DNA of 64,000 nt from NCBI GenBank assembly GCA_963711565.1, contig CAVQEQ010000002.1:240181-304180 (forward strand), in the 5' to 3' direction. Below, piece by piece: positions 1,385 to 26,475 of the stretch. Source of the DNA: an uncultured delta proteobacterium. GTDB taxonomy: Bacteria; Desulfobacterota; Binatia; Binatales; Binataceae. The stretch's first letter is position 1. Each line of letters begins with the position of its first letter. The notes under the pieces are model-generated. The model was not told the DNA's origin and searched no databases. It worked only from the letters and a program-made list of their open reading frames with translations. Both the position numbers and the translations under genes were made by a program.

Positions 1385-1440
1385 GGTGATGGGGTTCACC
1401 GATTAACCGCTCTCTGTTTCAGAGGCTGATGACCCCTGCG
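1385..1440 (+). promoter_or_regulatory. fluoride riboswitch (crcB motif) #1, upstream of ilvD-mutS-mutS
   Basis: GGTGATGGGGTTCACC-GATTAACC-GCTCTCTGTTTCAGAGGC-TGATGACCCCTGC: P1, P2 and GGGGT/ACCCC pseudoknot match the consensus. Confidence 0.93.
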
Positions 1441-1465
1441 GAAAAAGCCGTAGGGGTTTATTTTT
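1432..1465 (+). terminator. intrinsic terminator, expression platform of riboswitch #1
   Basis: ACCCCTGCGG-AAAAAG-CCGTAGGGGT followed by TTATTTTT; overlaps the pseudoknot strand. Confidence 0.85.
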
Positions 1466-1506
1466 GGAAGAGCGCCAGGGTTTCTTCAATAAGAGGATAC
1501 GATACC

Positions 1507-3180
1507 ATGCCTGAAAATCTTAGAAGTAAGACGATTACCGAGGGCGTCCAACGTTCACCGAATCGGTCAATGCTGCGCGCCGTTGGCTTCACCGACAGTG
1601 ATTTTCAGAAGCCAATTATCGGTATCGCCAACGCGTACAGCACGATCACCCCATGCAACATAAGTCTGAACGTACTCGCGCAGCGCGCAGAGTCCGCACT
1701 CAAGACGTCGGGTGCGATGCCGCAGGTATTCGGCACCATCACGGTTAGCGATGGCATAGCGATGGGAACCGAGGGCATGAAGTACTCGCTGGTATCGCGC
1801 GAGGTGATCGCGGATTCCATCGAGACGGCGTGCAGCGCTCAGTCGATGGACGGCGTAGTTGCGATCGGCGGTTGCGACAAGAACATGCCGGGCTCGATGA
1901 TGGCGATCGCGCGGATGAATATTCCAGCGATCTTCGTTTACGGTGGAACGATCAAGCCGGGACACTACAACGGCCGCGATCTGACGATCGTGAGCGCCTT
2001 CGAAGCAGTCGGGGAATTCAGCGCTCACAAGATCGGCGAGAAAGAATTGCTCGAGGTCGAGCGCCGCGCGTGTCCTGGGGCGGGTTCGTGCGGCGGGATG
2101 TATACCGCCAACACAATGTCGTCGGCGATCGAGGCGATGGGCATGAGCCTGCCGTATTCGTCAACGATGGCGGCCGAAGATTCCGAGAAGGCCGACAGTG
2201 CCGCGAAATCGGCGCAAGCCGTTGTCCAGGCGGTGCGCACGCAATTGCTGCCGCGACAAATCATGACGCGCAAGGCGTTCGAGAATGCGATCTCAGTCGT
2301 GATGGCGGTGGGAGGATCGACCAACGCCGTACTCCATCTGCTCGCGATGGCTCACACGGCTGAAGTGCCGCTGACTATCGACGACTTCGAGACGATTCGT
2401 CAGCGCGTACCGGTCCTGTGCGACATGAAGCCGTCGGGGCCTTACGCCACGACTGACTTGCACCGCGCGGGCGGGATCCCGCAGGTGATGAAAATGCTCC
2501 TGAACCGAGGGCTGCTGCACGGTGACGCGATCACCATCACCGGAAAAACGATTGCGGAGAATCTGGCCGAAGTCCCCGATGCGCCGGGTACGGATCAGGC
2601 GGTCATTCATCAGTGGAATAAGCCGGTCTATCCGCAGGGTCATCTGGCAATCATGCGGGGGAACCTGGCAACTGAAGGCGCCGTCGCAAAGATCACCGGG
2701 ATAAAGAGCCATCACATTACGGGACCGGCACGAGTGTTCGAAAGCGAGGAAGACTGCCTGAGTTCGATCCTCGCGGGCAAGATCAAAGCCGGTGACGTGG
2801 TCGTGATTCGCTACGAAGGGCCGAAGGGCGGACCTGGGATGCGCGAGATGCTGTCACCGACCTCGGCGATCATCGGCGCCGGGCTCGGCGATGCGGTCGG
2901 ACTCATAACCGACGGCCGTTTCTCGGGCGGTACCTATGGTTTGGTTGTGGGACACGTCGCCCCGGAAGCACAGGTGGGCGGACTGATCGCGCTGGTGCAC
3001 GAAGGGGACTCGATCACGATCGATGCGAACAAACATCTGCTTACGCTGAATGTGCCCGAAGCCGAGATCGCGCGGCGCCGGTCCGAATGGCGAGCGCCTA
3101 AGCCCCGATACACCCGAGGCGTGCTGGCGAAGTACGCGGCTCAAGTGTCATCGAGTAGCATCGGGGCCGTGACGGACTAA
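1507..3180 (+). CDS. ilvD: dihydroxy-acid dehydratase
   Basis: [63 protein letters not shown] before ATG 1507. Confidence 0.97.
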
Positions 3181-24799: not shown

Positions 24800-24847
24800 C
24801 GAAACAGAATGCCCCGGTTAGCATCTGAAGCTGGTTGGAGTTGTTGG

Positions 24848-26056
24848 ATGAATCTGCGACCCGGACCTGAAGAACCCGACCTCGAACCGGCTGGAGCGGC
24901 CGAACCCTGGCTGAATCGCAATATAGTCGGCATGGGAATCTCCAGTCTGTTTTCGGACTGGGGCCACGAGATGGCCACCGCGATCCTGCCACTGTTCATT
25001 GTGACGATCGGTGCTTCCCCTGCCGCACTCGGAGTAATCGAAGGCGCCTCCGACGGCGCGGCTACTTTCGCAAAGCTCGCCGGTGGACGGCTTGCCGATC
25101 GAGTGGGAGTGCGGCACCTCGCCGCGACTCTCGGCTATCTGATAACTGGACTCGCGACCGGCTCATTTGCACTCGCTCAGACATGGTTCGAATTGTTGAT
25201 CGCGCGCACCGTGGGATGGATGGCGCGTGGCGTACGCGGACCTTGCCGCGACAACCTGTTGGTCGAATCAGTTCCGGCCGCGAAGGTCGGCACCGCCTTC
25301 GGCTTCCATCGCTCGTTCGACACGCTCGGGGCGATCATTGGTCCGCTGTGCGCTATGTTTCTGTTGCATCGGATCGGCTTCCGCAGCATCTTCGTGCTGA
25401 GCCTCGTCCCGGGAGTCTTATCAGCAGTCTCATTTTTCTTCTTCGTCCGTGAACCTAAGGAGGAGCATCTCGAAGGCCCCCGCGCGTTTCCGGGATGGAA
25501 CGCCGCAATGCCGCCGGCGTTTCGGCGCTTCCTGCTCGCGGTTGGCGTCTTCGGGATAGGCGACTTCGCGCACAGCATGCTCATCCTTCGCGCGGCCCAG
25601 TTGATGGGCTCCTCGGCCAAAGCGATGAGCATCGCAGTCGGTCTGTACGTCGTCCACAACGTCGCGCATGCGATATTGGACTATCCGATCGGCGTCGCGG
25701 GCGATCGCTATCAGCGGCGTTATCTGCTGGCGGGATGGTACGTCGTAAGCCTGATCGCGGCCATTGGATTCGCAATTGGACCAACCAGCTTCGTATCGCT
25801 GGTGGTTCTCTTTATTCTCGAAGGCACGGTGATGGCTGCTGAAGAAACGCTTGAGTCGGCTGTGGCCGCTGATCTCTTGCCTGCGAATGTACGCGGCACT
25901 GGTTTCGGAATCCTGGCCGGCGTGAATGGGGTCGGCGACTTGGTGTCGAGCGTCGCAGTCGGGTTACTGTGGACTCATCTATCGGCGGAGGCTGCATTTG
26001 GCTACGCCGCTTTGATGAGCGCAATGGGTTCGGTACTGCTTTTCCTCGCCGTATGA
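24848..26056 (+). CDS. MFS transporter
   Basis: about 12 hydrophobic segments; SSLFSD..HEM, G.LADRVG, FGFHRSFDTLGA; GGAG before ATG 24848. Confidence 0.92.
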   Translation: MNLRPGPEEPDLEPAGAAEPWLNRNIVGMGISSLFSDWGHEMATAILPLFIVTIGASPAALGVIEGASDGAATFAKLAGGRLADRVGVRHLAATLGYLITGLATGSFALAQTWFELLIARTVGWMARGVRGPCRDNLLVESVPAAKVGTAFGFHRSFDTLGAIIGPLCAMFLLHRIGFRSIFVLSLVPGVLSAVSFFFFVREPKEEHLEGPRAFPGWNAAMPPAFRRFLLAVGVFGIGDFAHSMLILRAAQLMGSSAKAMSIAVGLYVVHNVAHAILDYPIGVAGDRYQRRYLLAGWYVVSLIAAIGFAIGPTSFVSLVVLFILEGTVMAAEETLESAVAADLLPANVRGTGFGILAGVNGVGDLVSSVAVGLLWTHLSAEAAFGYAALMSAMGSVLLFLAV

Positions 26057-26475
26057 ACTGGTCCCACGTCAGAAGGATCTCAATTGTGATGCGTGCGCTG
26101 GAAGACGCCACGCTCGAGATTGAAGGCGCCCTCGAGACTCGCGGCGATCGCACGCGCCTGCTGACTACGCTTGAGGACGATATTGACGACTCTGTAAAGC
26201 CGATAATCCTCGGTAAGATGGGACAGATTCGGTCGGAGATCCGCGACCTGAAGAGTTACTACGACCTGGAGTCGATTACGGTCTCCAGCCGGCGTCATAT
26301 CTCAACCAAGCTTGCGATCCTGGCGATCGATCTGACCGAGTGCCTCTCGCAGTACCTTCGCAGCTACGGCGAAGTTCCAGAAGCGGAACGAGCTACGCTC
26401 GACGAGCGGGTGTCACGATTGGAAGCGCTGGTTAACGAAGCGAGCAAACTCATCGTCTCCAATCGCAGAGGTTGA
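26053..26475 (+). CDS. hypothetical helical protein (140 aa), last gene of operon
   Basis: ATGA overlap with MFS; MNWSHVRRISIV...LRSYGEV. Confidence 0.7.
   Translation: MNWSHVRRISIVMRALEDATLEIEGALETRGDRTRLLTTLEDDIDDSVKPIILGKMGQIRSEIRDLKSYYDLESITVSSRRHISTKLAILAIDLTECLSQYLRSYGEVPEAERATLDERVSRLEALVNEASKLIVSNRRG

What the first reader, a model, noticed from the sequence alone, without database searches (positions are those of the whole stretch)
1385..26475. A ~25-kb fluoride-response island wired by six fluoride riboswitches
Seen: six separate crcB-motif aptamers (1385+, 8629-, 9080-, 9878+, 11836+, 19645+). Each has P1, P2, a pseudoknot and its own overlapping terminator or RBS-sequestering hairpin. 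Together they head nearly every transcription unit in the region, about 20 genes. Established: these riboswitches switch genes ON in fluoride and usually precede crcB/eriC; MutS-like, formate-hydrogenlyase-like, USP, pyrophosphatase and MFS genes are reported associations without known mechanism. Inference: this is an unusually dense multi-layer fluoride-tolerance system. It would combine export (Fluc, MFS), replacement of F-sensitive Mg/phosphoryl enzymes (IlvD, PPase, phosphatases), ion-gradient/pH control (Ehr) and membrane remodelling (two dynamins), with several orphans gaining a functional lead.
Basis: partly seen in the sequence, partly recalled or inferred. Interest (0 to 1): 0.92.

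Follow-up and report, generated by a model that had tools for sequence, protein, structure and literature searches.

The report
Six-switch fluoride island with dynamins
Six fluoride-riboswitch sequences (five clear, one weak) sit in front of 20 genes in this soil bacterium and likely switch them on together in fluoride; similar many-switch islands occur in other bacteria, and two of the genes belong to a dynamin-like GTPase family that nearly always lies behind such a switch, which points to a likely unreported membrane-protecting branch of fluoride defence.

Summary
Real, but not unique. Rfam finds 5 of 6 sites above cut-off and the sixth at 23.6 bits. All six genome hits lie within 18.3 kb and head 20 genes. 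The weak site keeps the core contacts and recurs before the same gene in 4 other genomes.

The block is conserved in Binataceae-type genomes (5-8 switches). Burkholderia plasmids carry a partly syntenic island with 9-11, and 10 or more per genome is reported for M. extorquens DM4.

The new part is the cargo. Dynamin-like genes of this clade lie behind a fluoride riboswitch in 43 of 50 loci from 24 Desulfobacterota families. In an unbiased Pfam draw it is 21 of 23, against 0 of 29 loci of other dynamins. The link also shows in Acidobacteriota, Planctomycetota and Burkholderia. I found no paper on it, but Baker 2012 and its gene lists were unreadable. This scan found the dynamin link before on other DNA (142 notes).

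The 'formate hydrogenlyase' lacks NiFe ligands (Ehr-like). IlvD and PPase are second copies. No function was tested.

The parts
1376..1466 (+). Fluoride riboswitch R1 with overlapping intrinsic terminator (stem 1431-1458)
   Evidence: Rfam 48.5 bits; terminator; orthologous switch before ilvD in G061, G062, G064, G065
1510..3180 (+). ilvD, second copy, closest to cyanobacterial dihydroxy-acid dehydratase
   Evidence: NCBIfam ilvD above cut-off; 6NTE 951 bits; housekeeping copy 49% identical on C3
3233..4766 (+). Short MutS-like ATPase A; split by a one-base frameshift near 3450 in this assembly, likely an assembly error
   Evidence: MutS_V only; alignment to a relative; short-read contigs
4763..6259 (+). 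Short MutS-like ATPase B
   Evidence: MutS_V; hits on 48 plasmids; MutS-like pair with a fluoride switch nearby on the 6 plasmids examined
6256..8010 (-). Dynamin-like GTPase 1 (BDLP/IniA fold), second gene of the R2 unit; has its own switch in relatives
   Evidence: Dynamin_N; model and Foldseek to IniA/BDLP; own switch in G062, G064, G065, G070
8020..8550 (-). Family I pyrophosphatase, second copy, with a 3-residue deletion in an acidic loop
   Evidence: deletion shared by 3 of 5 homologues aligned; absent from the 4 PDB alignments shown
8550..8638 (-). Fluoride riboswitch R2 (G6-C38 variant); terminator hairpin also covers the GGGAG ribosome-binding site
   Evidence: Rfam 36.9 bits
8677..9003 (-). 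108-aa orphan
   Evidence: no Pfam or Atlas hit; orthologues behind a switch in G018, G061, G065, G070
8997..9089 (-). Riboswitch R3 (G6-C38 variant, below Rfam cut-off); hairpin hides the start codon
   Evidence: 23.6 bits; orthologues 26.6-32.7 bits; folding
9180..9803 (+). Histidine phosphatase, inside the block but with no switch upstream on its strand
   Evidence: PF00300; divergent from R3
9869..10003 (+). Riboswitch R4 with two terminators in series; the freed arm of the first is predicted to block the second
   Evidence: Rfam 49.7 bits; constrained folding
10093..11373 (+). DUF190-CBS4 fusion
   Evidence: same switch-gene-crcB unit in congeners
11401..11772 (+). crcB/Fluc fluoride channel, the only copy found in the genome
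   Evidence: TIGR00494 above cut-off
11793..11940 (+). Promoter-like site (TTGACT-16-TAAACT with TG) and riboswitch R5
   Evidence: the promoter scan finds no more sites than shuffles do
12026..19600 (+). Six-gene Ehr-like membrane complex (hyfC, hyfE, hyfF, large, small, hyfB); large subunit lacks both NiFe CxxC motifs
19636..19775 (+). Riboswitch R6 (G6-C38 variant)
   Evidence: Rfam 34.4 bits; same variant before the same gene in 11 of 13 loci
19776..20600 (+). DUF6062-like CxxC/CxxH protein with C-terminal coiled-coil-like part
20623..21318 (+). Metallophosphoesterase
   Evidence: homologues behind switches elsewhere
21315..22310 (+). HEAT-repeat protein
   Evidence: weak (below cut-off)
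22316..24799 (+). Dynamin-like GTPase 2 fused to a C-terminal DUF6062-like domain
   Evidence: same clade as GTPase 1
24809..26056 (+). MFS transporter
   Evidence: homologues in other fluoride loci
26056..26475 (+). 139-aa orphan
   Evidence: no Pfam hit; homologues at 24-29% identity in fluoride loci

Best explanation
This is a cluster of six fluoride-riboswitch-led gene units that likely switch on together when fluoride builds up in the cell, adding to the Fluc channel a set of likely backup enzymes, a predicted ion-pumping Ehr-like complex and two dynamin-like GTPases that would protect the membrane. Shown: the aptamers, their competing hairpins, the gene identities, the second-copy status of IlvD and PPase, the loss of NiFe ligands, and the recurring switch-dynamin linkage. 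From established knowledge of RF01734: fluoride binding stabilises the pseudoknot, prevents the terminator or start-hiding hairpin, and turns genes ON. Inferred: HF enters as a weak acid, acidifies the cytoplasm, drains the proton gradient and poisons Mg/phosphoryl enzymes. Fluc would remove F-. The extra PPase, IlvD and phosphoesterase would make up for inhibited enzymes. The Ehr-like complex would help restore the ion gradient. The dynamins would bind and reshape stressed membrane as BDLP/IniA-type proteins do. One switch per unit would let modules be gained, lost and shuffled, as the relatives show. Odds: fluoride-ON regulon about 0.9; dynamins a genuine part of the response about 0.85; membrane protection as their role about 0.5.
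For: Rfam hits and clustering. A6-U38/G6-C38 covariation across 206 parsed switches (223 collected): 146 A-U, 54 G-C, 4 U-A, 1 A-C, 1 C-U, 0 G-U; linchpin A40-U48 in 205 of 206. Block conserved and reshuffled in Binataceae-type genomes. Partly syntenic Burkholderia island with 9 and 11 switches. Dynamin link: 43 of 50 loci in a 400-genome phylum draw; Rfam confirms 17 of 20 tested. Pfam draw: 21 of 23 in-clade against 0 of 29 other dynamin loci. Metagenomes: 50 of 80. A different IlvD (47% identical) follows switch-crcB-DUF190-dynamin in another family. P. putida Tn-seq points to membrane integrity under fluoride (PMC9796867 passage). In E. cloacae FRM, riboswitch-led ppa, usp, eno, gpm and crcB jointly give resistance (PMC5533749 passages).
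Against: No expression or binding data. R3 and its orthologues all score below the Rfam cut-off. Equilibrium folding of whole leaders shows no gain in start-site access for R1, R4, R5 and R6; that is expected for terminators but leaves R5 and R6 unexplained. Six of 50 phylum loci and 9 of 80 metagenome loci with at least 1.5 kb of upstream flank have no switch. The island-type ilvD has no switch in 6 of the 12 homologous loci examined: L034, L117-L120 and L121; it has one in G061, G062, G064, G065 and L163 and in the window. The G-C variants come from related genomes, so the covariation may be few events. Nothing tested ties the dynamins to membranes in fluoride. 29 of 36 congeners have no fluoride switch at all, so the island is dispensable in most relatives.
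Confidence: 0.7

Rival explanations
1. The regulon is right, but the dynamins and MutS-like ATPases are not membrane or DNA repair factors. They are nucleotide-driven machines that either are themselves blocked by Mg-fluoride (so more copies are made) or free and reactivate enzymes locked by Mg-fluoride-phosphate complexes.
For: Dynamin is followed directly by enolase in 10 of 84 downstream genes clustered. The MutS-like pair matches only the ATPase domain and weakly matches the reactivase KamC model. Metal fluorides trap GTPases as transition-state mimics (recalled, no call). No clear transmembrane segment in either dynamin.
Against: The genome has no other dynamin that would need backing up. 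The model has the full BDLP-like neck, trunk and a flexible tip. In many Desulfobacterota loci the switch leads the dynamin with none of my reference fluoride genes nearby.
Confidence: 0.2
2. The G6-C38 switches (R2, R3, R6) are a variant class tuned to a different fluoride level or a different ligand, so the island responds to two signals.
For: Three of six switches share a coupled change at a tertiary pair next to the binding pocket and score lowest in Rfam. They head the non-canonical genes: PPase-dynamin, the orphan, and the DUF6062 operon.
Against: Fluoride is held by Mg and backbone phosphates (PMC8752731 passage). The change is compensatory and the linchpin is kept. The same dynamin clade uses ordinary A6-U38 switches in other Desulfobacterota.
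Confidence: 0.07
3. Most genes are passengers in a stress hot spot; only crcB and a few known genes are selected for fluoride.
For: Relatives lose pieces: ppa is deleted in G061, and MutS-like or dynamin genes are missing in some. USP and the phosphatase lie in the block without a switch.
Against: Dedicated switches directly before dynamin, ilvD, the orphans and the Ehr genes in independent arrangements; 0 of 29 control dynamin loci have one.
Confidence: 0.03

Closest known systems
Fluoride riboswitch, crcB motif, Rfam RF01734 (Weinberg 2010, PMC2864571)
   Same: P1, P2, pseudoknot, A40-U48 linchpin, overlapping terminators, ON logic; upstream of crcB, mutS-like and 'formate hydrogen lyase' genes
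   Different: Six copies in 18 kb; three with G6-C38 in place of A6-U38; one with two terminators in series; heads dynamins, IlvD and DUF6062 proteins, which the passages I read do not list
Enterobacter cloacae FRM genomic island GI3 (PMC5533749)
   Same: Island with a riboswitch, crcB, pyrophosphatase, USP and a phosphomutase-family gene; multi-gene resistance shown by knock-outs
   Different: One switch and six genes there; six switches and 20 genes here; no Ehr, dynamin, IlvD or MutS-like pair among the six genes described; no transposase next to this block
Methylobacterium extorquens DM4 (at least 10 fluoride riboswitches; second-hand passage in PMC6785547)
   Same: Many switches in one genome
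   Different: Whether they cluster, and what they control, I could not read (Baker 2012 not held)
Burkholderia multivorans NZ_CP143553.1 and B. cenocepacia NZ_CP073671.1 plasmid islands (public records; I found no description of them as fluoride islands)
   Same: Order MutS pair, convergent dynamin, ppa, small gene, DUF190, Ehr genes, MFS, crcB; 9 and 11 switches
   Different: Add enolases, CLC-type channel and cfa; B. multivorans island flanked by Tn3, IS21 and an integrase; their dynamin is a distant sub-branch; no DUF6062 operon or ilvD
Bacterial dynamin-like proteins BDLP (2J68), IniA (6J72), Campylobacter pair (5OWV)
   Same: GTPase domain plus helical neck and trunk; Foldseek E 2e-18
   Different: 17-19% identity; no predicted transmembrane hairpin; riboswitch control; the second copy carries a DUF6062-like domain
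E. coli formate hydrogenlyase HycE (7Z0S) and Ehr complexes (name recalled)
   Same: Homologous membrane and soluble subunits
   Different: RVCGIC is replaced by RISGTS and the C-terminal CxxC is gone; no formate dehydrogenase gene in the block; so it fits Ehr, not FHL

Membership tests
Fluoride riboswitch RF01734 | Score at or above the Rfam gathering cut-off (34 bits) | tested here: met
   5 of 6 sites, 34.4-49.9 bits
Fluoride riboswitch RF01734 (site R3) | Score at or above the Rfam gathering cut-off | tested here: not met
   23.6 bits; orthologues 26.6-32.7 bits; filed as a likely divergent member on conservation only
Fluoride riboswitch RF01734 | Pseudoknot strands, long-range pair 6-38 and linchpin A40-U48 | tested here: met
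   All six; G6-C38 in R2, R3, R6 is compensatory. Pair types from PMC8004769 and PMC8752731 passages; T. petrophila numbering of 6-38 recalled
Fluoride riboswitch RF01734 | Expression platform that competes for the aptamer's 3' strand | tested here: inconclusive
   Competing hairpin predicted in all six; clear terminator in R1, R2, R4; start-hiding in R3; unresolved in R5, R6
Fluoride riboswitch RF01734 | Selective fluoride binding and ON switching | not testable with these tools
   Needs probing or reporters
Fluc/CrcB | Family model above cut-off | tested here: met
   TIGR00494 95.1 vs 80.45; PF02537
Formate hydrogenlyase / group 4 NiFe hydrogenase | Two CxxC motifs binding NiFe in the large subunit | tested here: not met
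   Lost here and in all 12 homologous hits at the first motif
Ehr (hydrogenase-related) complex | Ech/Hyf-like subunit set without NiFe ligands (definition recalled) | tested here: met
Ehr (hydrogenase-related) complex | Ion pumping coupled to electron transfer | not testable with these tools
   Small subunit has Asn in place of one cluster Cys in the Binataceae copies
Bacterial dynamin-like proteins | Dynamin_N GTPase domain and long helical stalk | tested here: met
   PF00350 95.9 and 84.7 bits; model of GTPase 1, pLDDT 73, matches IniA/BDLP
Bacterial dynamin-like proteins | Lipid binding and membrane remodelling | not testable with these tools
   No transmembrane segment predicted; tip region low confidence
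MutS1/MutS2 DNA repair proteins | Mismatch-binding or Smr domains; equivalog cut-off | tested here: not met
   Only MutS_V; 58-85 bits vs cut-offs 400-642
IlvD dihydroxy-acid dehydratase | Equivalog cut-off | tested here: met
   TIGR00110 789 vs 618
Mobile genomic island | Integrase, transposase or tRNA at the edges; patchy spread; different flanks | tested here: inconclusive
   No mobility gene or tRNA next to the block; GC 59% vs 60-61%; patchy among congeners; flanks differ between relatives; the Burkholderia versions are on plasmids with IS elements

The most novel reading that the evidence does not exclude
A widespread clade of bacterial dynamin-like GTPases, with DUF6062-like zinc-type partners, is a dedicated fluoride-induced membrane-protection system, a third arm of fluoride defence beside export and enzyme backup. 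Many-switch islands like this one package it with an Ehr ion pump (the long-cited 'formate hydrogenlyase') and a backup IlvD.
Probability: 0.45. Interest if true: 0.8.

Novelty: new variant of a known kind. Interest (0 to 1): 0.6.

Why it matters
Fluoride riboswitches mark genes that counter fluoride, and most non-exporter genes behind them have no known role. This block lists 20 candidates in one place. It gives a natural inducer for a large dynamin-like clade (3,177 proteins at E<=1e-60), when triggers for bacterial dynamins are poorly known (recalled). It suggests that the 'formate hydrogenlyase' cited in reviews as fluoride-linked (PMC11139923) is, in the islands checked here, a NiFe-less Ehr complex. 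It names IlvD as a possible fluoride target. All of these can be tested in a laboratory crcB-deletion strain, and they bear on engineering microbes for organofluorine degradation. The island's density alone is not exceptional.

Tried and rejected
Uniqueness of six switches: rejected.

Formate hydrogenlyase and MutS repair labels: rejected on motifs and cut-offs.

True pseudogene status of MutS-like A: unlikely.

Universal ilvD link: rejected; 6 homologous loci lack a switch.

A search meant to sample another phylum returned the same genomes under new handles, so it adds nothing.

On the Lichenicola plasmid the dynamin is divergent from crcB and the switch faces crcB, so it is adjacent but not controlled.

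Promoter scan: 5 sites vs 5.5 in shuffles, uninformative. Atlas gave nothing for the 108-aa orphan. Sequencing-run search: no RNA holder listed. A snoRNA hit at E 0.06 is chance.

Papers not held: Baker 2012, Breaker 2012, Ren 2012, McIlwain 2021. Weinberg 2010 supplements S1 and S3, which hold the gene contexts, were unreadable.

No complex prediction was run; I make no binding claim.
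Full report
OBSERVATION. Rfam RF01734 hits five sites above its 34-bit cut-off: 1376-1445+, 8570-8638-, 9869-9938+, 11827-11898+ and 19636-19696+. The sixth, 9019-9089-, scores 23.6 bits. In the whole 4.84-Mb genome all six hits at E<=0.01 lie in these 18.3 kb; uniform placement would give that about 5e-12 of the time. 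The six units hold 20 genes. R1: ilvD and two short MutS-like ATPases. R3: a 108-aa orphan. R2: pyrophosphatase and dynamin-like GTPase 1. R4: DUF190-CBS and crcB. R5: six hydrogenase-4-like genes. R6: a DUF6062-like protein, metallophosphoesterase, HEAT protein, dynamin-like GTPase 2 with a DUF6062-like tail, MFS and a 139-aa orphan. A USP gene and a histidine phosphatase lie at or in the block without a switch. Short-read contigs from four soil studies cover 1200-12200, the part I laid; three lack the base that splits the first MutS-like gene.

THE SWITCHES. All six keep the pseudoknot strands and the A40-U48 linchpin, which PMC8752731 (passages) shows is needed for the fluoride-locked state. 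R2, R3 and R6 have G and C at the two partners of the long-range reverse Watson-Crick A-U pair (pair type from PMC8004769 passages; numbering 6-38 recalled). Among 206 of 223 collected switches that my script could parse, the pair was A-U 146, G-C 54, U-A 4, A-C 1 and C-U 1 times. These are related sequences, so this may be few events. P1 and P2 covary in a model-fitted alignment. R3 recurs before the same orphan in G018, G061, G065 and G070 at 26.6-32.7 bits, always below cut-off; I put it at about 85% real. Constrained folding gives a hairpin that takes the aptamer's 3' strand in all six. R1, R2 and R4 end in U-tracts and R3 hides its start codon. In R4 two terminators form without ligand; with the aptamer blocked, the freed arm of the first pairs with the second. 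R5 and R6 stay unresolved.

HOST AND SPREAD. The best named relatives are Candidatus Binataceae and similar soil MAGs. Only 7 of 36 congeners have any switch, at most 3, with modules in pieces. Using the DUF6062-like gene as bait gave 13 loci, two of them near-identical. Ten have the Ehr genes directly upstream and 11 have the G6-C38 switch. Of 10 of these genomes scanned, five carry 5-8 switches within 8-26 kb and five carry 2-3 in all. Modules are reshuffled and flanks differ. The second MutS-like protein hit 48 plasmids, of which I opened seven. B. multivorans NZ_CP143553.1 has the order MutS pair, convergent dynamin, ppa, small gene, DUF190, Ehr genes, MFS, crcB, with 9 switches in 28 kb, bounded by Tn3, IS21 and an integrase. 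B. cenocepacia has 11 and Alicyclobacillus 6, Caballeronia 3, Rubrobacter and Enterobacter 1 each, and Rhodococcus only weak hits. So the density is high but not exceptional.

THE DYNAMIN LINK. GTPase 1 models as a BDLP/IniA-like protein. In G062, G064, G065 and G070 it has its own switch. A draw of 400 genomes from the phylum gave 50 homologues (26-43% identical) outside this genome. With a covariance model built from non-window switches, 43 of 50 have a same-strand switch upstream: 39 directly and 4 further up. They come from 24 families. Six have none and one has no flank. Rfam confirmed 17 of the 20 loci I gave it; the other three were negative with both models. As a control I took all PF00350 matches in 150 genomes (55 matches outside this genome, one not fetched). 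Of 23 in the clade, 21 have a switch. Of 29 loci of other dynamins, 0 do; three of the 29 were not placed in the tree and six rows have short flanks. Among the best 80 of 575 metagenome matches, 23 have a switch directly upstream, 27 further upstream, 5 elsewhere, 16 have too little flank and 9 have none; a few are duplicates. In a FastTree tree the clade of 146 rows (support 90) holds both window GTPases and the Burkholderia ones, with 112 switch-positive, 10 negative and 24 short; the 28 outside rows have none. Three of the 24 are the phylum negatives, which stayed negative on longer stretches. Named members include Terriglobales and Brocadiaceae. Frequent neighbours are enolase, DUF190/CBS, Na+/H+ antiporter and crcB.

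OTHER CARGO. The large subunit of the membrane complex has RISGTS where HycE has RVCGIC and no C-terminal CxxC; 12 of 12 homologous hits also lack the first motif. It is Ehr-like (name recalled), not a hydrogenase, although reviews speak of formate hydrogen lyase (PMC11139923 and PMC2864571 passages). IlvD is a second copy nearest the cyanobacterial enzyme. It is switch-led in four relatives and one metagenome locus but not in six other homologous loci. A different IlvD follows switch-crcB-DUF190-dynamin in another family. I found no paper on fluoride inhibition of IlvD. The PPase is a second copy with a three-residue loop deletion shared by three relatives; whether this alters fluoride sensitivity is unknown.

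MECHANISM. Most likely a modular fluoride-ON regulon: export, enzyme backup, ion-gradient support and membrane protection. The regulon and the dynamin membership are well supported by comparison. The roles of the dynamins, Ehr, MFS and MutS-like pair are inferred. P. putida Tn-seq implicates membrane integrity in fluoride stress (PMC9796867 passages). The main rival is that the NTPases are fluoride-blocked or reactivating enzymes.

WHAT IS KNOWN. Known: the riboswitch and its crcB, mutS, FHL, ppa, antiporter and enolase links; a one-switch resistance island (PMC5533749 passages); 10 or more switches in DM4 (one second-hand passage, PMC6785547; PMC5585157 passages had no mention). Not found in print: fluoride + riboswitch + dynamin gave 0 papers. 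Search listings showed no title on the link or on many-switch islands. 'Dynamin' is absent from PMC11139923, PMC9796867 and the readable Weinberg supplements. Baker 2012 and Weinberg S1/S3 could not be read and may list such genes. This scan has noted the dynamin link before, in 142 notes from at least 97 genomes. I saw those notes after my own tests; they agree but are not independent proof.

VERDICT. Observation confirmed with one weak site. Interpretation partly supported. A new variant of a known kind. Interest 0.6, carried by the dynamin clade, the Ehr correction and IlvD rather than by the count of switches.

Noticed in passing
window 48466-63871: An IS21-type IstB gene followed by a Mu-like prophage (transposase, AAA protein, protease I, tail tape-measure domain) running to the contig end.
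   Followed up: no
window 35391-38641: Exo/endo/phosphatase gene beside a LigD primase-polymerase and an ATP-dependent ligase, a likely end-joining set.
   Followed up: no
window 9931-10003: One aptamer appears to gate two terminators in series; similar relay hairpins are visible in Desulfobacterota dynamin leaders.
   Followed up: partly
window 16713-17456: The Ehr small subunit has Asn (Asp in one relative) where GCPP has its Fe-S cysteine, in all six Binataceae-type homologues; Burkholderiaceae copies keep Cys.
   Followed up: partly
L053:12920-41278 and L122:4-30734: Plasmids of two Burkholderia cepacia complex isolates carry 9 and 11 fluoride riboswitches; the B. multivorans region has two enolases, two pyrophosphatases and two Ehr-like clusters.
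   Followed up: partly
L137:5260-9516 and L282: Switch-crcB-DUF190-dynamin-ilvD with a different IlvD clade in one Desulfobacterota family.
   Followed up: partly
L034:1266-4584: In congener G005 a 94%-identical ilvD without a switch sits next to an integrase-like gene and near the enolase/DUF190-crcB module.
   Followed up: no
L336:8545-11611: Lichenicola plasmid: a 409-aa crcB fusion divergent from a clade-like dynamin, with USP and antiporter nearby.
   Followed up: partly
L121:14415-15943: HEARO RNA before an IscB gene on the Trichormus plasmid; a known arrangement.
   Followed up: no
window 26660-27997: DUF1329 gene at the right edge, one of many paralogues in the genome.
   Followed up: no
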